This document shows positions 5,002 through 25,865 of a stretch of DNA of 34,161 bases, piece after piece. Every line of letters begins with the position of its first letter. Position 1 is the first letter of the stretch. Under the pieces are notes generated by a model that had not been told where the DNA came from, did not search any database, and was given only the letters and a program-made list of their open reading frames with translations. Position numbers and translations under genes: made by a program. Source of the DNA: a virus (lineage: Duplodnaviria; Heunggongvirae; Uroviricota; Caudoviricetes); IMG/VR virus record IMGVR_UViG_2534681675_000021. One strand, 5' to 3'.

Positions 5002-7276
5002 AGCCTCCGGGCGTTTTGTCCCTCCGTCAGCATTTGCCGCAGGCACCGGTAAGGCGTTTACCGGTGCTTATGCATGGAACGCGCCACGCGAGGCTGTCGG
5101 GCGCGAAAGACCACTTACACGTGACGAGATGCGTCAGGTGCAAGGTGTTTTATCCACGATTAACCGCCTGCCTTACTTTTTGCGCTCGCTGTTTACTTCA
5201 CGCTATGACTACATCCGGCGCAATAAAAGCCCGGTGCACGGGTTTTATTTCCTCACATCCACTTTTCAGCGTCGTTTATGGCCGCGCATTGAGCGTGTGA
5301 ATCAGCGCCATGAAATGAACACCGACGCGTCGTTGCTGTTTCTGGCAGAGCGTGACCACTATGCGCGCCTGCCGGGAATGAATGACAAGGAGCTGAAAAA
5401 GTTTGCCGCCCGTATCTCATCGCAGCTTTTCATGATGTATGAGGAACTCAGCGATGCCTGGGTGGATGCACATGGCGAAAAAGAATCGCTGTTTACGGAT
5501 GAGGCGCAGGCTCACCTCTATGGTCATGTTGCTGGCGCTGCACGTGCTTTCAATATTTCCCCGCTTTACTGGAAAAAATACCGTAAAGGACAGATGACCA
5601 CGAGGCAGGCATATTCTGCCATTGCCCGTCTGTTTAACGATGAGTGGTGGACTCATCAGCTCAAAGGCCAGCGTATGCGCTGGCATGAGGCGTTACTGAT
5701 TGCTGTCGGGGAGGTCAATAAAGACCGTTCTCCTTATGCCAGTAAACATGCCATTCGTGATGTGCGTGCACGCCGCCAGGCAAATCTGGAATTTCTTAAA
5801 TCGTGTGATCTCGAAAACAGGGAAACCGGCGAGCGCATCGACCTTATCAGTAAGGTGATGGGCAGTATTTCTAATCCTGAAATTCGCCGGATGGAGCTGA
5901 TGAACACCATTGCCGGTATTGAGCGTTACGCCGCAGCAGAGGGTGATGTGGGGATGTTTATCACGCTGACCGCGCCGTCAAAGTATCACCCGACACGTCA
6001 GGTTGGAAAAGGCGAAAGTAAAACCGTCCAGCTAAATCACGGCTGGAACGATGAGGCATTTAATCCAAAGGATGCGCAGCGTTATCTCTGCCGTATCTGG
6101 AGCCTGATGCGCACGGCATTCAAGGATAATGATTTACAGGTCTACGGTTTGCGTGTCGTCGAGCCACACCACGACGGAACGCCGCACTGGCATATGATGC
6201 TTTTTTGTAATTCGCGCCAGCGTAACCAGATTATCGAAATCATGCGTCGCTATGCGCTCAAAGAGGATGGCGACGAAAGAGGAGCAGCGCGAAACCGTTT
6301 TCAGGCAAAACACCTTAATCGGGGCGGTGCTGCGGGGTATATCGCGAAATACATCTCAAAAAACATCGACGGCTATGCACTGGATGGTCAGCTCGATAAC
6401 GATACCGGCAGACCTCTGAAAGATACTGCCGCGGCTGTTACTGCATGGGCGTCAACGTGGCGCATCCCGCAATTTAAAACGGTTGGTCTGCCGACAATGG
6501 GGGCTTACCGTGAACTACGCAAATTGCCTCGCGGCGTCAGCATTGCTGATGAGTTTGACGAACGCGTCGAGGCTGCACGCGCTGCCGCAGACAGTGGCGA
6601 TTTTGCGTTGTATATCAGTGCGCAGGGTGGGGCAAATGTTCCGCGCGATTGCCAGACTGTCAGAGTCGCCCGTAGCCCGTCGGATGAAGTTAACGAGTAC
6701 GAGGAAGAAGTCGAGAGAGTGGTCGGCATTTACGCGCCGCATCTCGGCGCGCGTCATATTCATATCACCAGAACGACGGACTGGCGCATTGTGCCGAAAG
6801 TTCCGGTCGTGGAGCCTTTGACTTTAAAAAGCGGCATCGCCGCGCCTCGGAGTCCTGTCAATAACTGTGGAAAGCTCACCGGTGGTGATACTTCGTTACC
6901 GGCTCCCACACCTTCTGAGCACGCCGCAGCAGTGCTAAATCTGGTTGATGACGGTGTTATCGAATGGAATGACCCGGAGGTCGTGAGGACGCTCAGGGGG
7001 GCATTAAAACACGGCCTGAAAACACCAAATCGTCAGCAAAGAAACGGAAGCCCGTTAAAACCACATGAAATAGCACCGTCGGCCAGACTGACCCGGTCGG
7101 AACGATTGCAAATTACCCGTATCCGCGTTGACCTCGCTCAGAACGGTATCAGGCCGCAACGATGGGAGCTTGAGGCGCTGGCGCGTGGCGCGATCGTAAA
7201 TTCTGACGGGAAAAAATTCACGTATCCGGTCGCTGATGAGTGGCCGGGATTCTCAACAGTAATGGAGTGGACATAA
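4991..7276 (+). CDS. A: Replication initiation protein A (rolling-circle nickase), 761 aa
   Basis: 761 aa from ATG 4991 (the track start at 4949 is a TTG). Length and position as P2 A. Confidence 0.85.
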   Translation: MAVKASGRFVPPSAFAAGTGKAFTGAYAWNAPREAVGRERPLTRDEMRQVQGVLSTINRLPYFLRSLFTSRYDYIRRNKSPVHGFYFLTSTFQRRLWPRIERVNQRHEMNTDASLLFLAERDHYARLPGMNDKELKKFAARISSQLFMMYEELSDAWVDAHGEKESLFTDEAQAHLYGHVAGAARAFNISPLYWKKYRKGQMTTRQAYSAIARLFNDEWWTHQLKGQRMRWHEALLIAVGEVNKDRSPYASKHAIRDVRARRQANLEFLKSCDLENRETGERIDLISKVMGSISNPEIRRMELMNTIAGIERYAAAEGDVGMFITLTAPSKYHPTRQVGKGESKTVQLNHGWNDEAFNPKDAQRYLCRIWSLMRTAFKDNDLQVYGLRVVEPHHDGTPHWHMMLFCNSRQRNQIIEIMRRYALKEDGDERGAARNRFQAKHLNRGGAAGYIAKYISKNIDGYALDGQLDNDTGRPLKDTAAAVTAWASTWRIPQFKTVGLPTMGAYRELRKLPRGVSIADEFDERVEAARAAADSGDFALYISAQGGANVPRDCQTVRVARSPSDEVNEYEEEVERVVGIYAPHLGARHIHITRTTDWRIVPKVPVVEPLTLKSGIAAPRSPVNNCGKLTGGDTSLPAPTPSEHAAAVLNLVDDGVIEWNDPEVVRTLRGALKHGLKTPNRQQRNGSPLKPHEIAPSARLTRSERLQITRIRVDLAQNGIRPQRWELEALARGAIVNSDGKKFTYPVADEWPGFSTVMEWT

Positions 7277-7728
7277 TGGCAAAAATTCACGAGTTAAAGC
7301 TGCACGCAAAATATTTCGACCTTGTGCTGGAAGGAAAGAAACGCGCAGAGTTTCGGAAAAATGACCGTAATTATGAGCGCGGGGACACGTTGATTTTGCA
7401 TGAATGGGTGCAGGGTGTGTATACGGGGCGAAAGGTTGAAGCCCGGATAACAGATGTTACTGACCTGTCAGACTGGCTGGAAGATTATGTCTTGCTAAGT
7501 ATTGAGCGGCTTAATACAGGCGCATATGAGATTGTGAACTGGAAAGAACTTAGTGAGCGTGGTCTGGTATTCAGAATTAATCATGAAATTATGCATCAGC
7601 TCGGCCTTGCTGTTATGTATGAATCAGAGACGGGGATGTCTGGCGGGGCAATGGTAGCCACGGATGGAGCATGGAACTATTCAGATGAACAGATGGAGCG
7701 TGCAAAGCAAAACGGGTGGCTTGGATAA
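7276..7728 (+). CDS. ASCH/DUF3850-like protein (P2 orf91 position), 150 aa
   Basis: ATG overlaps the A stop (TAATG). N-terminal KIHELKLHAKYFDLVLEGKKRAEFRKNDRNYERGDTLILHEW resembles the DUF3850/ASCH signature. Confidence 0.6.
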   Translation: MAKIHELKLHAKYFDLVLEGKKRAEFRKNDRNYERGDTLILHEWVQGVYTGRKVEARITDVTDLSDWLEDYVLLSIERLNTGAYEIVNWKELSERGLVFRINHEIMHQLGLAVMYESETGMSGGAMVATDGAWNYSDEQMERAKQNGWLG

Positions 7729-7934
7729 TGCACAGAATACCAGGCGAGATACCGCACCATAAAACTAAAAATATCAAGCTGATGGCTATTGTTCAGCGTT
7801 TACAGCGGATTATGGTCAACGAAAATCTGACGCCCGATGAGCTGGTCGGGTGTGCCGAAATAGTACGGGATAATTACGGGCGGCTTAACTATATCGGTCA
7901 GTCCAGAGTTGCGCCACCACCACGCAGACGATAG
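7716..7934 (+). CDS. Small hypothetical protein, about 70 aa
   Basis: ORF overlapping the end of the previous gene; no recognisable motif; could be non-coding. Confidence 0.3.
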   Translation: MAWIMHRIPGEIPHHKTKNIKLMAIVQRLQRIMVNENLTPDELVGCAEIVRDNYGRLNYIGQSRVAPPPRRR

Positions 7935-8157
7935 AGAACGCCGCCAGTCGTGAAACTTGTTTTCAGGGCTGGCGGGGTTGAACAACGAGCGAAGCGAGAC
8001 GTTAGTTGACAGACATATTTTTACTACGTTGGTGCTGGTTTTTGACGGTTGAAAGGAGTTAGGTTGGAGAGCTAACAACTTACAAATATTCAAAAGTAAG
8101 CATCCTGTTGCTAACATGAGGTTGATTTTTTATGTGGATGATGCAAAAAGGATAGCT

Positions 8158-8889
8158 ATGGATACTATAATCGCTTTTCTATCACTCGCTTTTTTCGTTG
8201 CTTTCTTCATCGGGCTAATCAAGCCATCACTGGTGCGAATGCCAAACCGCAAACGTGCAAGTGCGGTTTATCTCGGAGGAGGTTTTGTATTGAGCATAAT
8301 TGGTTCAATACTCTATCCAACAGAAAAAAGCCAGCCAGTTGCTAAAACTGAAACATCAACCGTTGCAGAACACAAAGTCCAAAAAACATTCGAATATGGT
8401 GAAAAAACACTCAAGGAATATCGGAACGAGTCAAAGAAAACACGACACGATATTGTGAATAGTTACATTGATTTTAAGGAAGTTCCAGCCACCGCGTCAG
8501 ATGCGTTTTATGCCTGCATGAGTGAGTATACATTTACCAAAGATGATGAGTTGAAACTCGGTGATGTTCTTGGGTGGTGCTTTAATGATTATGAAAATGA
8601 CCCGAGTTCACTAAACAATAAAATCAATCTTGATACATTTCAGAGTAATTTTAGTGGTTGGGATGGTTCTTATCGTCCATTGGAAAAACTAATTAAAGAT
8701 AATATGAACGATGATTCATCTTATAAACATGTGTCAACGGTATATCATCTGGTTTTGAATAAAGACCCGCATGCCATTGTGAAAACCACGTTTCGCGGAA
8801 CTAATGCTTATGGCGGAGTGGTGAAACAGACGATTGCTGCGCGTGTCAATGTAGAAACAGGTGAGGTTGTATCAATTATAAGTGAGTGA
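8158..8889 (+). CDS. Cargo protein 1: membrane-anchored protein of unknown function (two predicted N-terminal TM helices, about 180-aa soluble C-terminal domain)
   Basis: AGGA Shine-Dalgarno 7 nt before ATG 8158 (an alternative ATG at 8116 has no SD). Strongly AT-rich relative to the phage backbone. Hydrophobic segments IIAFLSLAFFVAFFIGLI and AVYLGGGFVLSIIGSILY. Occupies the P2 tin/old position. Confidence 0.6.
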   Translation: MDTIIAFLSLAFFVAFFIGLIKPSLVRMPNRKRASAVYLGGGFVLSIIGSILYPTEKSQPVAKTETSTVAEHKVQKTFEYGEKTLKEYRNESKKTRHDIVNSYIDFKEVPATASDAFYACMSEYTFTKDDELKLGDVLGWCFNDYENDPSSLNNKINLDTFQSNFSGWDGSYRPLEKLIKDNMNDDSSYKHVSTVYHLVLNKDPHAIVKTTFRGTNAYGGVVKQTIAARVNVETGEVVSIISE

Positions 8890-8910
8890 ACTGTGCCAGA
8901 ATGATAAAGA

Positions 8911-8930
8911 TGCCAGCATTTATGCTGGCA
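8911..8930. other. Intergenic hairpin (TGCCAGCA-TTTA-TGCTGGCA) between the two cargo genes
   Basis: Perfect 8-bp inverted repeat with a 4-nt loop, seen directly; function unknown. Confidence 0.3.
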
Positions 8931-8987
8931 ATCATAAAAATAGTGACTAGCAAAAATTGGTGTCTGGTTTTAATGTGAGATTAGAAA

Positions 8988-9686
8988 ATGAAGAGATGTA
9001 AATATATTTTAAGAGGTTTGTTGCTGAAGTTTAAAAGTATAAGTTCTATGCATTTGTTATTTGTTTTAATAACGGCTTGTCTATTCTTTTTTATAGGGTG
9101 TTACGTGGGTTATAGTGGTATTGGTTTGAATGGTGACACTAAATACCAATTAATTACAATACCTTTTTTGACCATGTTGGGTACTTGGGTTTCTGGGGTG
9201 GGAGCATTTTCTGCTGTTGCGACATCATTGTTGTTGGCACACCGTTCGCTAAAGGAAAATTCAGAAGAAATTGCTATTCGATATAGCATGGTGTTAATAC
9301 CATCAATGTACTTACCTAGCACTACAGATACAGCAATATCAATAACCATAACAAACAAAAGAAAAGTAAGGAGTAATATTCAATCGGTTGTTTTGCAATT
9401 TTCTAATAATAAAGCAATGAATATATGGGTAAACCCCGGGACGCTTATCTCTGGCAAGTTACCGCATGTTTTAGAAGACTATGGTGATATATTGATGCTT
9501 ATAATTCCAGAGAGCATTACCGCATCAGTAACTGATGAGGGGTTCGTAAAAGAATGTCAGGGGAATACTCTTGGAGAAGGTAGCGTCGTAGTTCACACAA
9601 CGACAAAAACATTTGTAAAAAAATTAACATTACCTCAAGTTAAGCCATTTAATGATAAATTTAAGTCTGTATTGACGAAGCCGTAA
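8988..9686 (+). CDS. Cargo protein 2: membrane-anchored protein of unknown function (two predicted TM helices, about 150-aa soluble C-terminal domain)
   Basis: AT-rich; hydrophobic segments LLFVLITACLFFFIGCYVGY and ITIPFLTMLGTWVSGVGAFSAVATSLLLA; same strand and spacing as cargo gene 1; no recognisable catalytic motif. Confidence 0.6.
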   Translation: MKRCKYILRGLLLKFKSISSMHLLFVLITACLFFFIGCYVGYSGIGLNGDTKYQLITIPFLTMLGTWVSGVGAFSAVATSLLLAHRSLKENSEEIAIRYSMVLIPSMYLPSTTDTAISITITNKRKVRSNIQSVVLQFSNNKAMNIWVNPGTLISGKLPHVLEDYGDILMLIIPESITASVTDEGFVKECQGNTLGEGSVVVHTTTKTFVKKLTLPQVKPFNDKFKSVLTKP

Positions 9687-9999: not shown

Positions 10000-11034
10000 T
10001 CAGCCGTTGTCAGTGTCCAGTGAGTAGTTTTTAAATCGGATGACCTCCTGACCGAGCCAGCCGTTTATCTCGCGGATCCTGTCCTGTAACGGGATAAGCT
10101 CATTGCGGACAAAGACCTTTGCCACTTTTTCAATATCACCCAGCGATCCGACGTTCTCCGGCTTGCCACCCATCAACTGAAAGGGGATGCGGTGCGCGTC
10201 CAGCAGGTCAGCGGCGCTGGCTTTTTTGATATTAAAAAAATCGTCCTTCGTTGCCACTTCACTGAGCGGGATAATTTTAATGCCGTCGGCTTTTCCCTGC
10301 GGGGCATAGAGAAACAGATTTTTAAAGTTGTTGCGGCCTTTCGACTTGACCATGTTTTCGCGAAGCATTTCGATATCGTTGCGATCCTGCACGGCATCAG
10401 TGACGTACATGATGTATCCGGCATGTGCGCCGTTTTCGTAATACTTGCGGCGGAACAGCGTGGCTGACTCATTCAGCCAGGCAGAGTTAAGGGCGCTGAG
10501 ATATTCCGGCAGGCCGTACAGCTCCTGATTAATATCCGGCTCCAGCAGATGAAACACGGAGCCGGGCGCGAAAGGTGTCGGCTCGTTGAAGGACGGCACC
10601 CACCAGTAAACATCCTCCTCCACGCCACGGCGGGTATATTTTGCCGGTGAGGTTTCCAGTCTGATGACCTTACCGGTGGTGCTGTAACGCTTTTCCAGAA
10701 ACGCATTACCGAACACCAGAAAATCCAGCACAAAGCGGCTGAAATCCTGCTGGGAAAGCCACGGATGCGGGATAAATGTCGAGGCCAGAATATTGCGTTT
10801 GACGTAAATCGGGGAGCTGTGATGCACGGCAGCACGCAGGCTTTTTGCCAGACCGGTAAAGCTGACCGGTGGCTCATACCATCTGCCGTTACTGATGCAC
10901 TCGACGTAATCCAGAATGTCACGCCGGTCGAGTACCGGTACCGGCTCACCAAAGGTGAATGCCTCCATTTTCGGGGCGCTGGCGGTCATTGTTTTTGCCG
11001 CAGGTTGCGGTGTTTTCCCTTTTTTCTTGCTCAT
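10000..11034 (-). CDS. Q: Portal protein Q, 344 aa
   Basis: 344 aa; start overlaps the P stop (ATGA); position and length as P2 Q. Confidence 0.95.
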   Translation of the reverse strand: MSKKKGKTPQPAAKTMTASAPKMEAFTFGEPVPVLDRRDILDYVECISNGRWYEPPVSFTGLAKSLRAAVHHSSPIYVKRNILASTFIPHPWLSQQDFSRFVLDFLVFGNAFLEKRYSTTGKVIRLETSPAKYTRRGVEEDVYWWVPSFNEPTPFAPGSVFHLLEPDINQELYGLPEYLSALNSAWLNESATLFRRKYYENGAHAGYIMYVTDAVQDRNDIEMLRENMVKSKGRNNFKNLFLYAPQGKADGIKIIPLSEVATKDDFFNIKKASAADLLDAHRIPFQLMGGKPENVGSLGDIEKVAKVFVRNELIPLQDRIREINGWLGQEVIRFKNYSLDTDNG

Positions 11035-18305: not shown

Positions 18306-18735
18306 TGCCGTCACGGTGCTGAAAACCAGCCCCGAGATGCTGCGGATATTCGTGGATAACGGGAGTATTGCCTCCACACTGGCGACGTCTCTGTCATTCG
18401 AAAAGCGTTACACGCTCAATGTGATTGTGACCGACTTTACCGGTGATTTTGACCTGCTCATTGTGCCGGTGCTGGCGTGGCTGCGGGAGAATCAGCCCGA
18501 CATCATGACCACCGACGCAGGCCAGAAAAAGGGCTTCACGTTTTATGCAGACATCAACAATGACAGCAGCTTTGATATCAGCATCAGCCTGATGCTGACC
18601 GAGCGCACGCTGGTCAGTGAGGTGGACGGCGCGCTGCATGTGAAGAATATCCCGGAACCTCCGCCGCCGGAGCCGGTCAACCGTCCGATGGAGCTGTATA
18701 TCAATGGCGAACTGGTGAGCAAGTGGGATGAATGA
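18268..18735 (+). CDS. R: Tail completion protein R, 155 aa
   Basis: 155 aa; position and length as P2 R. Confidence 0.85.
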   Translation: MLKPDSLRRALTDAVTVLKTSPEMLRIFVDNGSIASTLATSLSFEKRYTLNVIVTDFTGDFDLLIVPVLAWLRENQPDIMTTDAGQKKGFTFYADINNDSSFDISISLMLTERTLVSEVDGALHVKNIPEPPPPEPVNRPMELYINGELVSKWDE

Positions 18736-19186
18736 GTTTAAGCGTTTTGAAGACCGGCTGGCTGGACTGATTGAATCGCTGTCACCGTCAGGGCGTCGGC
18801 GACTGGCGGTAGATATTGCGAAGAAGCTGCGCCAGCGCCAGCAGCAGCGAATTAAATTACAAAAAGCCCCGGATGGTACGCCGTATGTACCGAGAAAAAA
18901 CCAACCAGTACGAAATAAGAAAGGCCGGATAAAGCGGGAAATGTTTGTGAAATTACGCACTAACCGGTTTATGAAAGCAACAGGTAGCGAGAGTGCGGCG
19001 GTGGTGGCGTTTGCCAGCGGAGTACAACGAATTGCGCGAGTACATCAATTAGGGCTTAGGGATAAGCCGGGGCGTAATAGTGCTGTGGTGGAATATCCTG
19101 TTCGTGAGTTATTTGGTTTTGACAAGGAATCTATACAATTGATAGAAAGGGAGTTATTAGTGATTCTATCGAAAGATGTTATATGA
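18728..19186 (+). CDS. S: Tail completion protein S
   Basis: About 150 aa; position as P2 S. Confidence 0.85.
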   Translation: MNEFKRFEDRLAGLIESLSPSGRRRLAVDIAKKLRQRQQQRIKLQKAPDGTPYVPRKNQPVRNKKGRIKREMFVKLRTNRFMKATGSESAAVVAFASGVQRIARVHQLGLRDKPGRNSAVVEYPVRELFGFDKESIQLIERELLVILSKDVI

Positions 19187-19938
19187 GACGGGTGTTTGTG
19201 GATAAAAAGTTTTCCATTTTGAGAAAAAGAGTAAAGCATTCTCAAAAGAAAGTTATGGATTGTATTATTGCTGACCATAATGCTGATATATGTGTGTTAT
19301 GCGGGAGTTCTGACGATATTACTCGTGAGCACATTATTCCTCAGTGGGCCTTTGAGTCAAATGCTGAAAAATCTTTAATTAATAAAAAGAATAATCAGTC
19401 AACTCATTACATTAAAGCCACTGTACCAGCATGCAGAGTGTGCAATTCTGATTTGCTGGGAGTGTTTGAGTATAACCTGAAGAAATTTCTTACGGAAAAG
19501 AGAGGGGAGGAGTTAACAGATTATGAGTATGATTGCATCATATGGTGGTTGCAATACATGGGTTTTAAGTTGCAATTAATGGATTTGCGGAACCGCTTTC
19601 TCAGGTATAAAGGTGGTGATTATATCCCGTTTCTTGCAAACTTCCCGGTTGCAATGTTTTGGGGGAATGTCGATACGACGCCGGGGGATGTCTTCAGGAT
19701 TATACGAAAATCGCGACGCAATCTGATGTCGAAATGGAAGGATAAAAAACATAATTCTTTGATGGTTTTTGAAACATCAAACAAGAGTTTTCATTTCTTT
19801 CATAAGGTTGATGAATTTATTTTTATTGAAATTCCTCAGGTTAAGAAGGCGTTTTTCTTCTTTTTTAATAAAGAATTTGACAGCCATGATTTAGCTCATG
19901 AGGAGTGTATGAAGATTATAGAGAAGTGCTACAACTAA
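19183..19938 (+). CDS. Cargo protein with N-terminal HNH-nuclease-like motif plus about 160-aa C-terminal domain of unknown function
   Basis: ATG overlaps the S stop (ATGA). Motif CVLCGSSDDITREHIIPQW...ACRVCNS (C-x2-C, HxxP, C-x2-C-N) is HNH-like. AT-rich. Inserted between S and V where P2 carries the moron orf30. Confidence 0.6.
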   Translation: MRRVFVDKKFSILRKRVKHSQKKVMDCIIADHNADICVLCGSSDDITREHIIPQWAFESNAEKSLINKKNNQSTHYIKATVPACRVCNSDLLGVFEYNLKKFLTEKRGEELTDYEYDCIIWWLQYMGFKLQLMDLRNRFLRYKGGDYIPFLANFPVAMFWGNVDTTPGDVFRIIRKSRRNLMSKWKDKKHNSLMVFETSNKSFHFFHKVDEFIFIEIPQVKKAFFFFFNKEFDSHDLAHEECMKIIEKCYN

Positions 19939-20015
19939 TATTTGTTATGTTGTGTCACAGCTGACAGAACCCTCCATGATTGCTGCTGGTATCGTCCAGC
20001 GGCATCCTTCCCGTT

Positions 20016-20651
20016 ATGAACACTCTCGCAAATATTCAGGAACTCGCGCGCGCACTGCGCAATATGATTCGCACCGGCGTTATCGTCGAAACCGACCTTA
20101 ACGCCGGTCGCTGCCGTGTGCAGACCGGCGGCATGTGCACCGACTGGCTTCAGTGGTTGACCCATCGTGCCGGGCGTTCGCGTACATGGTGGGCACCTTC
20201 CGTGGGGGAACAGGTGCTGATTCTGGCCGTGGGCGGTGAACTTGACACGGCGTTTGTTCTGCCGGGGATTTATTCCGGTGATAACCCCGCGCCGTCTGCG
20301 TCGGCGGATGCCCTGCATATCCGTTTCCCTGACGGGGCGGTGATTGAGTATGAACCCGAAACCAGTGCACTCATGGTAAGCGGAATTAAAACGGCCAGCG
20401 TGACGGCTTCTGATTCTGTTACTGCCACGGTGCCGGTGGTCATGGTGAAAGCATCAACCCGCATCACCATGGACGCACCGGAGGTGGTCTGCACCAACAG
20501 GCTGATTACCGACACGCTGGAAGTGCAGAAGGGCGGGACGATGCGCGGCAACATTGAACACACCGGCGGTGAACTCTCATCAAACGGTAAGGTACTGCAT
20601 ACCCATAAACACCCCGGCGACAGCGGCGGCACAACCGGGAGTCCTCTATGA
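20016..20651 (+). CDS. V: Baseplate spike/assembly protein V, 211 aa
   Basis: 211 aa from MNTLANIQEL; position and length as P2 V. Confidence 0.9.
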   Translation: MNTLANIQELARALRNMIRTGVIVETDLNAGRCRVQTGGMCTDWLQWLTHRAGRSRTWWAPSVGEQVLILAVGGELDTAFVLPGIYSGDNPAPSASADALHIRFPDGAVIEYEPETSALMVSGIKTASVTASDSVTATVPVVMVKASTRITMDAPEVVCTNRLITDTLEVQKGGTMRGNIEHTGGELSSNGKVLHTHKHPGDSGGTTGSPL

Positions 20652-23816: not shown

Positions 23817-24418
23817 TGGATAACGCCGTATTAAATAGCGAGCTTATTGCCACGAAGGCGGGGAATATTACCGTCTATAACTATGATGGTAAAACTCGGG
23901 AATATATTTCTACTTCAAATGAATATCTTGCCATTGGTGTCGGTATCCCTGCATATTCCTGTCTGGATGAACCTGGTATACATAAGGCGGGTTATGCTAT
24001 CTGCCGTTCGATGGATTTAAACTCATGGGAATATGTGCCAGACCATCGCGGTGAAATCGTCTATAACACCGAAACGGGAGACGCCAAAGAAATCACAGCT
24101 CCGGGTGATTATCCTGAAAATACAACCACTATCGCCCCGTTAACGCCATTCGATAAATGGGATGGTAAGAAATGGGTGACCGATACTGAGGCACAGCATA
24201 GCGCCGCAGTAGACGCGGCAGAAGCACAGCGTCAGTCACTGATTGATACTGCAATGGCTTCCATCAGTCTGATTCAACTGAAATTGCAGGCCGGGCGGAA
24301 GCTGACGCAGGCAGAAACCACCCGACTTAACGCTGTGCTGGATTACATTGACGCGGTGACGGCAACAGATACGAGCACCGCGCCGGATGTCATCTGGCCT
24401 GAACTGCCGGAGGCGTAG
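23816..24418 (+). CDS. G: Tail fibre assembly chaperone G, 200 aa
   Basis: ATG overlaps the H stop; position as P2 G. Confidence 0.8.
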   Translation: MDNAVLNSELIATKAGNITVYNYDGKTREYISTSNEYLAIGVGIPAYSCLDEPGIHKAGYAICRSMDLNSWEYVPDHRGEIVYNTETGDAKEITAPGDYPENTTTIAPLTPFDKWDGKKWVTDTEAQHSAAVDAAEAQRQSLIDTAMASISLIQLKLQAGRKLTQAETTRLNAVLDYIDAVTATDTSTAPDVIWPELPEA

Positions 24419-24830
24419 GCCATTCAATATCTGGCGCACCGGAAGTATCGACCAGTTCCAGTGCGTCCAGGTAATCCAGCCACAAATTATATTGCGCCAG
24501 TTCGTCACCTTTCAGACGACCAATAGCCGCTTTACCAGGCCATTGTTTACTGTTCATATAATCGTTGGCCTGATTAATCAATTGCTGCTTCTCCAGTTCG
24601 GCTGCAGCAATTTGTTCCTCATGTGTTGGTGGTGGAATTTCGGACCATGCAGGAAAACCATTTTCTCCAGCGATACGGATTTTTCCTTTCGGCGGTAATC
24701 CGGAAAACTCAATATACACTTGCTCATCAACTTCAACAGCATCATCTGGCCATGAGTCAGCTTGAGTGTAATCCTCTTTCATCTCCAGCGGATAGAAAGA
24801 GTTTGTAGTCGCGGAATATATGTAATTCAT
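24390..24830 (-). CDS. Alternative tail fibre assembly chaperone (G'), 146 aa, inverted orientation
   Basis: Convergent with G and overlapping its 3' end; C-terminus (...WLDYLDALELVDTSGAPDIEWPTPPA) parallels the G C-terminus (...VLDYIDAVTATDTSTAPDVIWPELPEA). Confidence 0.7.
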   Translation of the reverse strand: MNYIYSATTNSFYPLEMKEDYTQADSWPDDAVEVDEQVYIEFSGLPPKGKIRIAGENGFPAWSEIPPPTHEEQIAAAELEKQQLINQANDYMNSKQWPGKAAIGRLKGDELAQYNLWLDYLDALELVDTSGAPDIEWPTPPAVQAR

Positions 24831-24851
24831 TTTTCACTCCATATAGCTAAA

Positions 24852-25244
24852 TTAACAGCCTAACGCTAAAAATGAAGCGCCGAGGCCAGGAGTACTGGCT
24901 CTGGATATAAATTTAACCGGGTCGGGACTAAAACCTGCACAGGCAATATAACCAACAGCCCCGCTATCTGGTGTATAGTCTTGTGAGACCAAAACACGCA
25001 GACATCTGTTTGGAAATGCAATTGGGAAATGGGTTACTACATCCTGTGCAATGCCTGGAGCGCCGATTGAGCCCCACTGAAGAATAAAACCTGATGGTAA
25101 TTTTTGATATCCAGTACCTGAAACAGAAAGCGTGAAGCTACCCATATCAGGTATCTGATTCGCCCCTGTCCCTACATTCCTTTTAGCCGCTTCTCCCAAA
25201 CCAACGTTTATGAAAATGCAGAGATAACGGGCAACTGGCATCAT
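24852..25244 (-). CDS. Alternative tail fibre variable C-terminal segment (Hv'), silent in this orientation
   Basis: Minus-strand ORF directly upstream of G'. It contains the shared G-L-G-E junction encoded at the right crossover site; it would fuse to the constant part of H after inversion. The annotated Met is probably not a real start. Confidence 0.6.
25191..25216. other. Right recombination (crossover) site of the invertible segment
   Basis: TTCTCCCAAACCAACGTTTATGAAAA, an imperfect palindrome resembling hix/gix-type sites and an inverted repeat of 23323-23348; lies just upstream of the invertase gene. Confidence 0.6.
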
Positions 25245-25265
25245 CTCCGGTTTTTATTCAGGGGG

Positions 25266-25865
25266 ATGCTCATGCTTATTGGCTATGTACGCGTGTCAAC
25301 AAATGACCAGAACACGGAATTGCAGCGTAACGCGCTGGAGTGCGCAGGATGCGAGCGGATTTTTGAGGATAAAATCAGCGGCACGAAGTCCGACCGACCG
25401 GGACTGAAAAAACTGCTCAGAACATTATCAGCAGGTGACACTCTGGTAGTCTGGAAGCTGGACCGGCTGGGGCGTAGTATGCGGCATCTGGTCATTCTGG
25501 TTGAGGAGCTGCGCGAACGCGGCGTTAATTTTCGCAGCCTGACAGATGCTATTGATACCAGCACGCCGATGGGGCGTTTTTTCTTTCATGTGATGGGTGC
25601 CCTGGCTGAAATGGAGCGAGAACTCATTGTCGAGCGGACACGCGCTGGACTGGAAGCGGCCAGAGCCAAAGGGCGTATTGGTGGCAGACGTCCGAAGCTC
25701 ACCGCGAGTGAGTGGGAGCAGGCCGGGCGGTTGCTGGCTGCGGGGGAATCTCGTCAACGTGTGGCGCTGATTTTTGATATTGGCCTGTCCACGCTCTATA
25801 AAAAATTCCCCTCATCAGCGACAAAGAATAAATTGTGTCATCCCTTAGCCAACCGGGACAAATAG
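25266..25865 (+). CDS. Serine DNA invertase of the Hin/Gin/Cin/Pin family, 199 aa
   Basis: N-terminal MLIGYVRVSTNDQNTELQRNAL (catalytic Ser in YVRVST) and overall strong resemblance to e14 Pin as I recall it; C-terminal helix-turn-helix; adjacent to the invertible fibre segment. Confidence 0.9.
   Translation: MLMLIGYVRVSTNDQNTELQRNALECAGCERIFEDKISGTKSDRPGLKKLLRTLSAGDTLVVWKLDRLGRSMRHLVILVEELRERGVNFRSLTDAIDTSTPMGRFFFHVMGALAEMERELIVERTRAGLEAARAKGRIGGRRPKLTASEWEQAGRLLAAGESRQRVALIFDIGLSTLYKKFPSSATKNKLCHPLANRDK

What the first reader, a model, noticed from the sequence alone, without database searches (positions are those of the whole stretch)
19183..19938. HNH-motif cargo gene inserted between tail completion gene S and baseplate gene V
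A 251-aa AT-rich ORF, translationally coupled to S (ATGA overlap), interrupts the otherwise contiguous late tail operon at the position where P2 carries the moron orf30. Its N-terminus has an HNH-like signature (CVLCG...EHIIPQW...CRVCNS), followed by a C-terminal domain of unknown function. A stand-alone HNH nuclease moron expressed with late genes could be a defence or anti-competitor nuclease, or a homing-type endonuclease.
Basis: partly seen in the sequence, partly recalled or inferred. Interest (0 to 1): 0.7.

Follow-up and report, generated by a model that had tools for sequence, protein, structure and literature searches.

The report
Uncharacterised HNH nuclease in P2 late operon
A P2-like prophage of E. 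coli carries, tucked directly behind its tail gene S, a conserved stand-alone gene for a probable DNA-cutting (HNH) enzyme of an unstudied family that also travels as an integron cassette and sits in bacterial defence islands, so it is most likely a weapon in conflicts between mobile elements, but nobody has tested it.

Summary
The ORF is real (19183-19938, 36% GC against 57-58% flanks). It lies between S and V of a P2-like prophage. Its family conserves a full His-Me/HNH set from E. coli to Bacteroidota: four Zn cysteines, E49-H50, N70, N88. Pfam HNH_5 is the recurrent but sub-threshold hit (27 of 32 members). The rest of the protein matches no solved fold and no PADLOC or NCBIfam model.

- S-V is an inter-operon boundary, not mid-operon.
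- P2 Orf30 is antisense and unrelated.
- The conserved start is GTG 19198, not the ATG at 19183.

New findings:
- X comes with a divergent S allele.
- It keeps R-S-X-V-W synteny in 46 viral contigs and has co-diverged with the backbone under purifying selection.
- It is the only sense-strand cargo seen in this slot, with no promoter or terminator of its own.
- Outside P2-like phages it is a single gene without a partner: an attC-flanked integron cassette in Aliivibrio, and a neighbour of AbiE, ABC-3C and TIR genes elsewhere.

Best reading (about 0.45): an autonomous conflict or defence nuclease expressed with late genes. Homing endonuclease and lytic-cycle helper remain rivals. Its function is untested.

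The parts
18728..19186 (+). Gene S* (tail completion / virion morphogenesis). It is a divergent allele linked to X. It is identical to P2 and L-413C S for about the first 78 nt and diverges from about 18806 to the end. GC3 falls to 0.31 in its last third.
   Evidence: Pfam Phage_tail_S E=4e-29. DNA alignment A3. S* is 54% identical to P2 S but 62-72% identical to S of X-bearing phages of other genera. The 3' part of S* is present full length in 79 E. coli genomes, against 77 with X. GC3 by thirds.
19183..19938 (+). Maximal ORF of gene X (251 aa). The ATG at 19183 overlaps the S stop codon (ATGA).
   Evidence: PHROG 10503 E=1.6e-181 over the full length.
19198..19938 (+). X from the family-conserved start (GTG here, ATG in R18C; 246 aa). 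This is the likely true coding region.
   Evidence: The R18C annotation starts here. All homologues start at this position. Junction sequences are shown.
19291..19470 (+). His-Me finger (HNH_5-like) core, aa 37-96. It contains Zn ligands C37, C40, C84 and C87, then E49-H50 (metal ligand and general base), N70 (structural Asn), N88 (metal ligand) and the invariant E96. A conserved but low-confidence loop spans aa 55-78.
   Evidence: Pfam HNH_5 E=0.0099, 16.2 bits against a cut-off of 27.5. HNH_5 hits 27 of 32 family members, best E=2.5e-5. Family-wide invariant residues. AlphaFold2 beta-beta-alpha elements. The roles of individual residues are inferred by analogy with the Cas9 HNH motif 'DHIVPQS', which I recall from memory.
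19675..19935 (+). C-terminal alpha-beta4-alpha domain, about aa 165-251. Invariant residues are R175, K186, S192, N200, F203, F205, H207, A223, F227, A238 and Y250. Its fold is unassigned. It is the presumed substrate-recognition or regulatory part.
19939..20015 (+). Intact P_V late-promoter block directly after the X stop codon. It has an invariant GTTGT at 19949-19953 that aligns with P2's annotated activator-binding site. It has a hairpin with arms at 19982-19989 and 19996-20003. The same block follows the S stop directly in empty-site phages.
   Evidence: P2 annotation. Alignment A5. The X-to-V spacing is a constant ~81 nt in 40 of 46 viral contigs. No terminator was called between X and V.
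20016..20651 (+). Gene V (baseplate spike), the first gene of the V operon. It marks the right-hand homology boundary of the module.
   Evidence: Pfam Phage_base_V, Phage_spike and Apex. Alignments.

Best explanation
X is an autonomous, single-polypeptide nuclease of about 246 aa. It has a zinc-stabilised His-Me finger (HNH_5-type, H50-N70-N88) set in a helical scaffold, followed by a small alpha/beta C-terminal domain. It belongs to an uncharacterised, AT-rich, horizontally mobile family that works without a partner gene.

The family behaves as cargo of mobile elements. It is found as an integron cassette, as a defence-island gene and in prophage cargo clusters. I infer that it acts in conflicts between mobile elements, cutting foreign (phage or satellite) nucleic acid. 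I also infer that self/non-self discrimination is built into the non-catalytic parts of the same protein, as in modification- or structure-dependent type IV-like nucleases.

In a sublineage of P2-like phages X became fixed as the last gene of the late O operon. It sits exactly between the S stop codon and the intact P_V promoter block, and it moved into E. coli P2-like phages together with its own S allele by recombination within S and near V. With no promoter of its own, it would be made when late promoters fire. That happens during the phage's own lytic cycle, or when an Ogr/delta-type activator is supplied in trans.

Shown: the anatomy, conservation, synteny, selection and genomic contexts. 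Inferred: nuclease activity, the target, the timing of expression and the defensive role.
For: - Catalytic set: it is invariant from E. coli to Bacteroidota and CPR bacteria. HNH_5 is the recurrent hit. AlphaFold2 predicts a beta-beta-alpha element.
- Selection: dN/dS is 0.18, equal to that of essential S. Between genera pN is about 0.2 while synonymous sites are saturated. X is full length in 77 of 77 E. coli genomes, with one possibly split copy.
- Autonomy: there is no conserved neighbour in 26 non-P2 loci.
- Mobility and conflict contexts:
  - In Aliivibrio X is an attC-flanked integron cassette. The identical protein is the first cassette beside the integrase in another strain.
  - In Niabella it sits in an island with AbiEii and an ABC-3C system.
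  - In viral contig L100 it sits with ThsB-TIR, DUF4062, 8xMP and T5orf172 genes beside the portal gene.
  - Neighbours elsewhere include Mrr, a type IV REase, GajB, Mokosh and PDC candidates.
  - X is up to 31 GC points below its flanks.
- A superfamily relative hits the PADLOC candidate PDC-M01B.
- The S-V slot hosts other candidate defence cargo (PDC-S59).
- P2-like phages are known reservoirs of defence genes at hotspots (PMC9122126, PMC13586616).
- Late-operon placement: X abuts S, no sigma70 site or terminator was found, and the P_V block is intact.
- The viable phage R18C carries X.
Against: - There is no experimental datum of any kind.
- There is no hit in PADLOC, NCBIfam or PDB.
- The window protein's HNH_5 score is below Pfam's cut-off (16.2 against 27.5 bits).
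- No recognisable sensor domain was found.
- If X is expressed only late, it cannot protect a lysogen in the usual way. All other cargos seen in this slot are antisense, with room for their own promoter.
- Deep co-divergence with the phage backbone is unlike the rapid swapping described for P2 defence hotspots (PMC13586616).
- Many neighbourhoods outside phages are plain housekeeping genes.
- The defence-context association was not tested statistically.
Confidence: 0.45

Rival explanations
1. X is a free-standing HNH homing endonuclease. It would cut the S-V junction, or the S gene, of P2-like phages that lack it. It would then spread by recombinational repair during co-infection or in polylysogens, dragging the flanking S* allele with it by co-conversion.
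For: - X has an HNH core.
- It is inserted in the sense orientation, abutting or overlapping an essential gene, without disturbing downstream signals. This is typical of phage free-standing homing genes.
- Its distribution among E. coli P2-like prophages is sporadic, at about 5%, and most sites are empty.
- It is tightly linked to a divergent allele of the adjacent gene. Mosaic S alleles also exist.
- E. coli genomes hold up to 4 P2-like copies of this region.
Against: - X has co-diverged with R, S, V and W over 55-100% identity, with constant synteny and spacing. It is under purifying selection as strong as S. About 44 of 46 viral copies and 76-77 of 77 genomic copies are intact. That is not the gain-decay-loss cycle expected of homing genes.
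- The same family is an attC-bounded integron cassette and a chromosomal defence-island gene in non-phage contexts, where its spread does not depend on its own cleavage.
- No NUMOD, AP2 or HTH-type DNA-binding module was found.
- The hit is to HNH_5 rather than to the phage homing HNH_3 type.
Confidence: 0.17
2. X is a lytic-cycle helper of this P2-like sublineage. It would be a late-expressed nuclease serving the phage's own DNA metabolism or host takeover, for example host or competitor DNA degradation, or processing of replication or packaging intermediates. It would not be a defence gene for the lysogen.
For: - X is the terminal gene of the late O operon and has no promoter of its own.
- It is stably inherited with the backbone across genera.
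- It is linked to and co-diverged with S*.
- It is carried by the viable, lytically growing phage R18C.
Against: - It is dispensable. P2, L-413C and about 95% of E. coli P2-like prophages lack it.
- It is not next to the terminase or portal genes, as packaging-associated HNH proteins are.
- Family members function as isolated cassettes in bacterial chromosomes with no phage around them.
Confidence: 0.15
3. X is a degenerate or non-nucleolytic His-Me finger protein. It could be a DNA-binding regulator or a toxin-like growth inhibitor, carried as neutral or selfish cargo.
For: - The Pfam score is sub-threshold and no structural match to a solved HNH enzyme was found.
- A long, low-confidence insertion (aa 55-78) splits the beta-hairpin.
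Against: - Every catalytic and zinc ligand is invariant across phyla, including N70 within the insertion.
- Purifying selection is strong.
- No antitoxin-like partner is conserved.
- In one Aliivibrio strain X is the first cassette next to the integrase, which I take to be the expressed position. This argues against overt toxicity.
Confidence: 0.08

Closest known systems
Pfam HNH_5 (PF14279) His-Me finger nucleases
   Same: The pattern CxxC...EH...N...CxxCN with two zinc-binding cysteine pairs. It is the consistent best Pfam hit for the family (27 of 32 members). About 800 distant relatives of 300-360 aa share the same N-terminal 100 residues.
   Different: The window protein is below the gathering threshold (16.2 against 27.5 bits). 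Only the first strand region aligns, and about 25 residues are inserted in the hairpin. The flanking helical scaffold and the C-terminal alpha/beta domain are not covered by any Pfam model.
Single-chain modification-dependent (type IV) restriction nucleases, such as the prophage e14-encoded McrA and the EVE-HNH or SRA-HNH enzymes (framework summarised in PMC12191111)
   Same: A stand-alone nuclease with no methyltransferase, no antitoxin and no partner, carried by mobile elements. The architecture is a nuclease plus a non-catalytic domain. Some family members lie next to Mrr or type IV enzymes.
   Different: No known modification-reader fold (SRA, EVE, YTH, ASCH, winged helix, iEndoIII) was detected. 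There is no sequence similarity to any PDB chain. The HNH domain is N-terminal. Modification dependence is pure inference.
P2 accessory ('moron') genes old, tin, fun(Z) and orf30, and the P2/P4 defence hotspots (PMC9122126, PMC13586616, PMC6823313)
   Same: X occupies one of the three classical variable slots of P2-like phages. It is AT-rich, dispensable and sporadically distributed. The R18C paper already lists this ORF (its ORF16) as replacing orf30 with unknown function.
   Different: X is unrelated to Orf30 (E=0.47). It is the only sense-strand cargo seen in the slot. It has no promoter or terminator of its own and is embedded in the late O operon. It has co-diverged with the backbone rather than being swapped.
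Free-standing phage HNH homing endonucleases (T4 Mob and I-HmuI type)
   Same: An HNH catalytic core. Intergenic, sense-oriented insertion next to an essential gene. Linkage to a variant allele of the neighbouring gene.
   Different: There are no NUMOD or AP2-type DNA-binding modules. X is retained long term under purifying selection. The family also occurs as integron cassettes and in defence islands.
PADLOC candidate PDC-M01B
   Same: A 315-aa superfamily relative (P0160) matches it at E=9.7e-6, and X itself matches at E=0.033.
   Different: The match is weak and partial. PDC-M01 is a two-gene, unvalidated candidate, whereas X has no partner gene.

Membership tests
HNH / His-Me finger nuclease superfamily (Pfam HNH_5, PF14279) | Catalytic His at the end of strand 1, a structural Asn, and a metal-binding Asn or His on the helix | tested here: met
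   E49-H50, N70 and N88 are invariant in 22 sequences at 37-100% identity and in A1.
HNH / His-Me finger nuclease superfamily (Pfam HNH_5, PF14279) | Two CxxC pairs forming the structural zinc site | tested here: met
   C37, C40, C84 and C87 are invariant.
HNH / His-Me finger nuclease superfamily (Pfam HNH_5, PF14279) | Score above Pfam's gathering threshold | tested here: not met
   16.2 bits against a cut-off of 27.5, E=0.0099, aligned over aa 37-54 only. However, 27 of 32 members hit HNH_5 at E<=0.01, best 2.5e-5. Two members carry a precomputed PF14279 hit.
HNH / His-Me finger nuclease superfamily (Pfam HNH_5, PF14279) | Beta-beta-alpha-metal fold superposable on a solved HNH enzyme | tested here: inconclusive
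HNH / His-Me finger nuclease superfamily (Pfam HNH_5, PF14279) | Metal-dependent nuclease activity | not testable with these tools
   This needs a biochemical assay.
Free-standing HNH homing endonuclease | Sequence-tolerant DNA-binding modules (NUMOD, IENR1, AP2, HTH) attached to the HNH domain | tested here: not met
   There are no such Pfam hits. The C-terminal domain has no DNA-binding-module match.
Free-standing HNH homing endonuclease | Sporadic presence at one site among close relatives, with a gain-decay-loss pattern | tested here: inconclusive
   The distribution in E. coli is sporadic, at about 5% of P2-like prophages. However, X is stably co-diverged and intact across 46 viral contigs and under purifying selection.
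Free-standing HNH homing endonuclease | Cleaves the endonuclease-less allele near its insertion site and is over-inherited in crosses | not testable with these tools
   This needs cleavage assays on the P2 or L-413C S-V junction and mixed infections.
Type IV (modification-dependent) restriction nuclease | Nuclease without a cognate methyltransferase or other partner | tested here: met
   No gene is conserved next to X in 26 non-P2 loci. X is a single-gene integron cassette in Aliivibrio.
Type IV (modification-dependent) restriction nuclease | Recognisable modified-base reader domain | tested here: not met
Known or candidate anti-phage defence systems (PADLOC-DB v2) | Significant match to a system component model | tested here: not met
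   The best hits are PDC-M01B at E=0.033 and Cas8c at E=0.036, both noise-level.
P2 Orf30 family | Sequence similarity and the same orientation in the S-V slot | tested here: not met
   BLASTP E=0.47. P2 orf30 is 261 aa on the minus strand.
Classic phage 'moron' (an autonomous transcription unit inside a late operon region) | Own promoter and terminator flanking the cargo gene | tested here: not met
   No plus-strand sigma70-like site lies upstream and no terminator lies downstream. No positionally conserved promoter was found in 21 loci. The X stop runs straight into the P_V block. These are consensus scans only, so weak promoters are not excluded.
Integron gene cassette (applies to family members, not to the window copy) | A single ORF bounded by attC recombination sites, in an array next to an integron integrase | tested here: met
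   In L051, X lies at 7001-7765 between ~122-nt repeats at 6850-6971 and 7762-7883, in an array of at least 13 repeats. In L052 the same protein is the first ORF after a divergently oriented integrase.

The most novel reading that the evidence does not exclude
X is an activator-gated weapon of the helper phage. It would be silent in the lysogen because it has no promoter of its own. It would be switched on only when the P2 late promoter P_O fires. That includes transactivation of the resident prophage by the Ogr/delta-type activator of an incoming P4-like satellite or a heteroimmune P2-like phage. X would then cut the intruder's DNA. This would be a transcriptionally triggered, immunity-protein-free nuclease defence, and possibly the first anti-satellite factor described for P2-like helper phages. 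The cross-activation of P2 late promoters by P4 delta and by other Ogr homologues is established knowledge that I recall from memory. Nothing here tests its link to X.
Probability: 0.08. Interest if true: 0.8.

Novelty: new member of a known kind. Interest (0 to 1): 0.5.

Why it matters
If the inference holds, this is an unrecognised single-gene nuclease family. It has about 130 full-length clusters, and a superfamily of about 880 representatives shares its HNH module. The family moves between integrons, defence islands and prophages. It is missing from the two defence and annotation libraries I could search here (PADLOC-DB v2 and NCBIfam).

Its placement in P2-like phages is unusual for accessory cargo. 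It is sense-oriented, has no promoter of its own, is welded to a tail gene and has been retained through genus-level divergence. That raises a testable question: can a temperate phage use its late-gene switch, rather than an antitoxin or a methylase, to keep a nuclease safe until it is needed, and against whom is it used (competing phages or P4-type satellites)?

It also adds the S-V junction to the P2 slots worth screening. It provides a compact (246 aa) HNH scaffold with an unassigned recognition domain.

If X turns out to be a homing endonuclease or a dispensable helper, the finding is of routine interest.

Tried and rejected
- **Sequence libraries.** PADLOC, NCBIfam, and PDB by both single sequence and profile gave nothing.
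- **Whole-model fold searches.**
  - Foldseek against PDB returned nothing at E<1.
  - The afdb50 library was not available.
- **Relation to P2 Orf30.** Rejected.
- **Two-gene system or toxin-antitoxin pair.** Rejected, because no neighbour is conserved. The antisense 216-aa gene next to X in Klebsiella is not conserved elsewhere.
- **Own promoter.**
  - The consensus scan found none upstream on the plus strand.
  - A by-eye candidate (TTGACA at 19119-19124 with TG-n-TAGAAA) is weak.
  - No promoter-like site is positionally conserved across 21 loci.
- **AT-rich 3' end of S as a feature specific to X.** Rejected, because the S allele next to a different cargo (ATP-binding protein) shows the same GC3 drop.
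- **Plasmid carriage.** None was found.
- **Literature.**
  - I found no paper characterising the family.
  - The Brenes & Laub 2025 prophage-defence screen is not in the searchable library, so I could not check it.
- **Context of the 300-360-aa superfamily relatives.** The one relative I tried (P0122) had no encoding gene on record in the collection, so I have no neighbourhoods for this group.
- **Spacing of the TGT...ACA dyad in P_V.** My by-eye counts differed between phages (10-11 nt). I therefore rely only on the alignment to P2's annotated site.
Full report
**1. The observation**

GC falls to 0.36-0.40 over the ORF, against 0.57-0.60 on both sides. The fall begins inside the 3' part of the upstream gene.

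The neighbouring genes are:
- R, P2_Phage_GpR, E=1.3e-44
- S, Phage_tail_S, E=4e-29
- V, Phage_base_V plus spike plus apex

The S stop codon overlaps the ATG at 19183.

The window is a P2-like prophage in an E. coli chromosome. Identity to many E. coli genomes is 99-100%. An integrase lies at 1419-2432 and a chromosomal peptidase U32 gene lies at the right end.

**2. The ORF is a real gene**

- PHROG 10503 (unknown function) matches end to end at E=1.6e-181.
- Phage R18C carries the gene at 98.4% identity, annotated as hypothetical.
- Two homologue searches returned about 44 and 95 clusters.
- An exhaustive profile search found 35 representatives at E<1e-30 and 880 at E<1e-3.
- Against R18C, dN/dS is 0.18 (5 synonymous and 4 non-synonymous differences). 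The adjacent essential S gene gives the same value (0.17).
- Between genera, synonymous sites are saturated (pS 0.8-0.9) while pN is about 0.2.
- X is present in 77 of 5,426 complete E. coli genomes, always at full length and 96-100% identity. One genome has a possibly split copy.

**3. Corrections to the description**

(a) Start codon.
- Every homologue begins at the position of window GTG 19198 (M-D/E-K-K-F...).
- R18C has ATG there and is annotated from it.
- Other genera have the S stop, an 11-25 nt spacer with a Shine-Dalgarno-like run, and then ATG.
- The ATGA overlap therefore exists but is a five-codon option specific to this lineage.

(b) Operon structure.
- In the annotated P2 genome, S is followed by the putative terminator of the O operon.
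- Next comes orf30, which is 786 bp (261 aa) on the minus strand.
- Next come the activator-binding site of P_V and then V, which opens the V operon.
- The S-V junction is therefore an inter-operon boundary, not the middle of an operon.

(c) Relation to Orf30. X is unrelated to it (BLASTP E=0.47).

**4. Anatomy of the insertion**

Left boundary:
- Against P2 and the empty-site phage L-413C, the window's S gene is identical for about 78 nt and then diverges to its end.
- The S* protein is 54% identical to P2 S. It is 62-72% identical to S of X-bearing P2-like phages from Klebsiella, Kluyvera and other genera.
- In E. coli the S* allele and X co-occur: 79 genomes against 77. About 18 further genomes hold mosaic S alleles.

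Right boundary:
- The X stop codon runs directly into a block that is conserved in all P2-like phages examined.
- This block contains an invariant GTTGT at 19949-19953, aligned with P2's annotated activator site. It also contains a GC hairpin and the run GGCATCCTT before the V ATG at 20016.
- In L-413C the same block follows the S stop directly.

No terminator was called between X and V. No plus-strand sigma70-like site was called upstream. A scan of 21 loci found no positionally conserved promoter.

X is therefore inserted precisely between the S stop and the P_V block, as the last cistron of the late O operon.

**5. The slot in E. coli**

A spread sample of 60 of the 1,598 matching records shows:
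- an empty site in roughly 55-60% (span 1,732 bp)
- the P2-orf30-type insert in about a quarter (span 2,606 bp)
- X in 76 genomes
- rare other cargos

The other cargos examined were P2 Orf30, a 414-aa ATP-binding protein and a 347-aa hypothetical protein. All three are antisense and lie about 70-100 nt beyond S. The ATP-binding protein matches the PADLOC candidate PDC-S59 at E=2.8e-31. X is the only sense-oriented cargo seen.

**6. History within P2-like phages**

In IMG/VR, all 46 contigs that carry X at 55-100% identity keep the order R-S-X-V-W, with X abutting S.
- The X-to-V spacing is about 81 nt in 40 of them.
- Four have an extra insert of about 1 kb.
- Two look truncated.

X identity (55-72%) tracks that of R (54-79%), S (60-74%) and V (59-85%). 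X is thus an old resident of a P2-like sublineage. It entered E. coli peduoviruses as an S*-X module by recombination inside S and at the P_V/V region. R18C, a viable phage, carries it.

**7. The protein**

Residues invariant across 22 sequences at 37-100% identity:
- N-terminal half: R14, H32, C37, C40, G41, E49, H50, P53, W55, N70, Y76, P82, C84, C87, N88, L92, E96
- C-terminal half: W122, L123, K129, P155, F171, R175, K186, S192, N200, F203, F205, H207 and others

This is a complete His-Me set:
- a four-cysteine zinc site
- E49-H50 on strand 1, whose local sequence EHIIPQW resembles the Cas9 HNH motif DHIVPQS (recalled from memory)
- N70
- N88 at the start of the helix

Pfam evidence:
- The window protein scores only 16.2 bits on HNH_5, against a cut-off of 27.5.
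- HNH_5 is nevertheless hit by 27 of 32 family members.
- It is also hit by the 300-360-aa superfamily relatives.

Structure prediction:
- AlphaFold2 (pLDDT 77, pTM 0.80) gives an N-terminal helical hairpin, beta46-50, a conserved but low-confidence loop at 55-78, beta80-84 and helix 85-105.
- It continues with helix 113-138, a disordered stretch at 140-163 and an alpha-beta4-alpha unit at 167-250.

Fold searches:
- No PDB chain is similar by sequence or by profile.

**8. Contexts outside P2-like phages**

Full-length relatives at about 37-41% identity occur in Vibrio, Photobacterium, Shewanella, Psychromonas, Halomonas, Paraglaciecola, Pseudomonas, Bacteroidota, Desulfobacterota and a Gracilibacteria genome. 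No neighbouring gene is conserved. The gene is AT-rich wherever it is found, up to 31 GC points below its flanks.

Informative cases:
- **Aliivibrio fischeri.** The gene is a cassette bounded by ~122-nt attC-type repeats, in an array of at least 13 repeats that also holds a HigB/HTH pair. In another strain the identical protein is the first ORF beside the divergently oriented integrase.
- **Niabella.** The gene lies in an island with AbiEii and an ABC-3C system (CTD10, MC6/7, DUF2326).
- **Pseudomonas syringae.** It lies at the edge of a P2-like tail and lysis cluster.
- **Viral contig L100.** It lies beside the portal gene among ThsB-like TIR, DUF4062, two 8xMP and T5orf172 genes.
- **The other 26 loci.** Neighbours include four integrases, two Mrr-type and one type IV restriction enzyme, GajB, Mokosh components and several PADLOC candidates. 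Many neighbours are housekeeping genes.
- **Plasmids.** No plasmid copy was found.

**9. Interpretation**

The shown facts point to an autonomous, selected, horizontally mobile nuclease gene. They are:
- an intact catalytic set
- strong purifying selection
- single-gene mobility as an integron cassette
- repeated placement among defence genes and in prophage cargo clusters

The most economical function is attack on foreign nucleic acid in conflicts between mobile elements. A lone nuclease with no methylase, antitoxin or partner must carry its own discrimination. The known precedent is the modular nuclease-plus-sensor design of modification-dependent enzymes (PMC12191111). No known sensor fold was found here, so that part is inference.

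The P2 arrangement adds a twist. X has no promoter of its own and sits at the end of the O operon. It should therefore be made when late promoters fire.
- That fits a weapon used during lytic growth.
- It could also fit one switched on by an incoming activator. This is the novel case, and it is untested.
- It argues against ordinary constitutive lysogen protection.

Homing remains possible:
- In its favour are the HNH core, the sense-oriented insertion next to an essential gene, the linked S allele and the sporadic distribution in E. coli.
- Against it are the deep co-divergence, the intactness of the copies, the integron and defence-island contexts, and the lack of homing-type DNA-binding modules.

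A purely phage-internal helper role is weakened by the gene's dispensability and by its life outside phages.

**10. Novelty**

- The R18C paper already noted this ORF as replacing orf30, with unknown function and no PSI-BLAST lead (PMC6823313).
- Automated names such as 'HNH endonuclease' exist for a few members.
- I found no paper that characterises the family. One relevant screen (Brenes & Laub 2025) could not be read.
- I file X as a new, uncharacterised member of a known kind: a stand-alone His-Me nuclease carried by mobile elements. Its unusual feature is late-operon embedding.
- I set interest at 0.5. The gene is a solid, testable candidate and is not yet a surprise.

Noticed in passing
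window 7240-7728 (+): A 162-aa ORF just after the replication gene region carries DUF3850/ASCH plus DUF7415 domains (E=1.9e-18, 2.3e-11, 1.3e-13). ASCH is a PUA-like fold that often reads modified bases or RNA. An ASCH cassette also lies two cassettes after X in the Aliivibrio integron (L052 8406-8870).
   Followed up: partly
window 7800-9686 (ORFs 7800-8117 minus strand, 8116-8889 plus, 8988-9686 plus): The classical old/tin hotspot, between the replication region and the minus-strand ORF at 10000-11034, holds three ORFs with no Pfam or PADLOC hit. These are untested candidate defence cargo of this prophage.
   Followed up: partly
window 24390-25865: At the Z/fun slot there is a DNA invertase (25266-25865, Resolvase plus HTH_7, E=8e-53). 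Next to it, on the minus strand, are a tail-fibre C-terminal fragment (24852-24244 region, Gp53-like_C) and a tail-fibre assembly gene (24390-24830). This looks like an invertible host-range segment of the Gin/Cin type.
   Followed up: partly
L047 (P2 NC_001895) 1440-2225, compared with PMC6823313: The R18C paper describes P2 ORF30 as '261-bp-long'. The P2 record annotates it as 786 bp (261 aa) on the minus strand. The paper seems to have confused residues with base pairs.
   Followed up: yes
L002-L004 6926-7576 (-), and L081, L084, L085, L090: In Klebsiella-type P2-like phages the slot holds X plus a second, antisense gene of 216 aa with no Pfam hit, placed between X and the P_V block. Four IMG/VR contigs likewise have about 1 kb extra between X and V. 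The slot can therefore stack cargos.
   Followed up: partly
L048 1079-2323 (-) (E. coli strain B2): An alternative S-V cargo is a 414-aa ATP-binding protein that matches the PADLOC single-gene candidate PDC-S59 (E=2.8e-31). Its neighbouring S gene is a mosaic: it carries the S* allele for about the first 100 residues and then diverges.
   Followed up: partly
window 18728-19186 and the S genes of L001, L002, L006-L008, L048: The last third of S has depressed third-position GC next to AT-rich cargo, whichever cargo it is (0.30-0.56, against 0.55-0.59 in P2 and L-413C). This suggests recombination tracts or composition spill-over from the cargo donor. It remains unexplained.
   Followed up: partly
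L051 and L052 (Aliivibrio fischeri): The identical 254-aa protein sits mid-array in one strain and as the first cassette beside the integrase in another. This is direct evidence of recent cassette shuffling. The array also carries a HigB-like toxin with an HTH_3 antitoxin and a DUF2971 gene.
   Followed up: partly
window 19982-20003, and the homologous positions in L045, L006, L007, L072, L096: A GC-rich hairpin (GCYGCYGG-N6-CCRGCGGC) followed by ATCCTT lies immediately upstream of the V start codon. It is conserved in all P2-like phages aligned, with or without cargo. Its role is unclear (end of the O transcript, or a structure in the V leader).
   Followed up: no
search result, (P0118-P0192): About 800 representative proteins of 300-360 aa share only the N-terminal ~100 residues of X (HNH plus two helices) and then have different C-terminal parts. 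This suggests a larger modular superfamily with swapped recognition domains. One of them, P0160, weakly matches PADLOC PDC-M01B. Their contexts could not be retrieved.
   Followed up: partly
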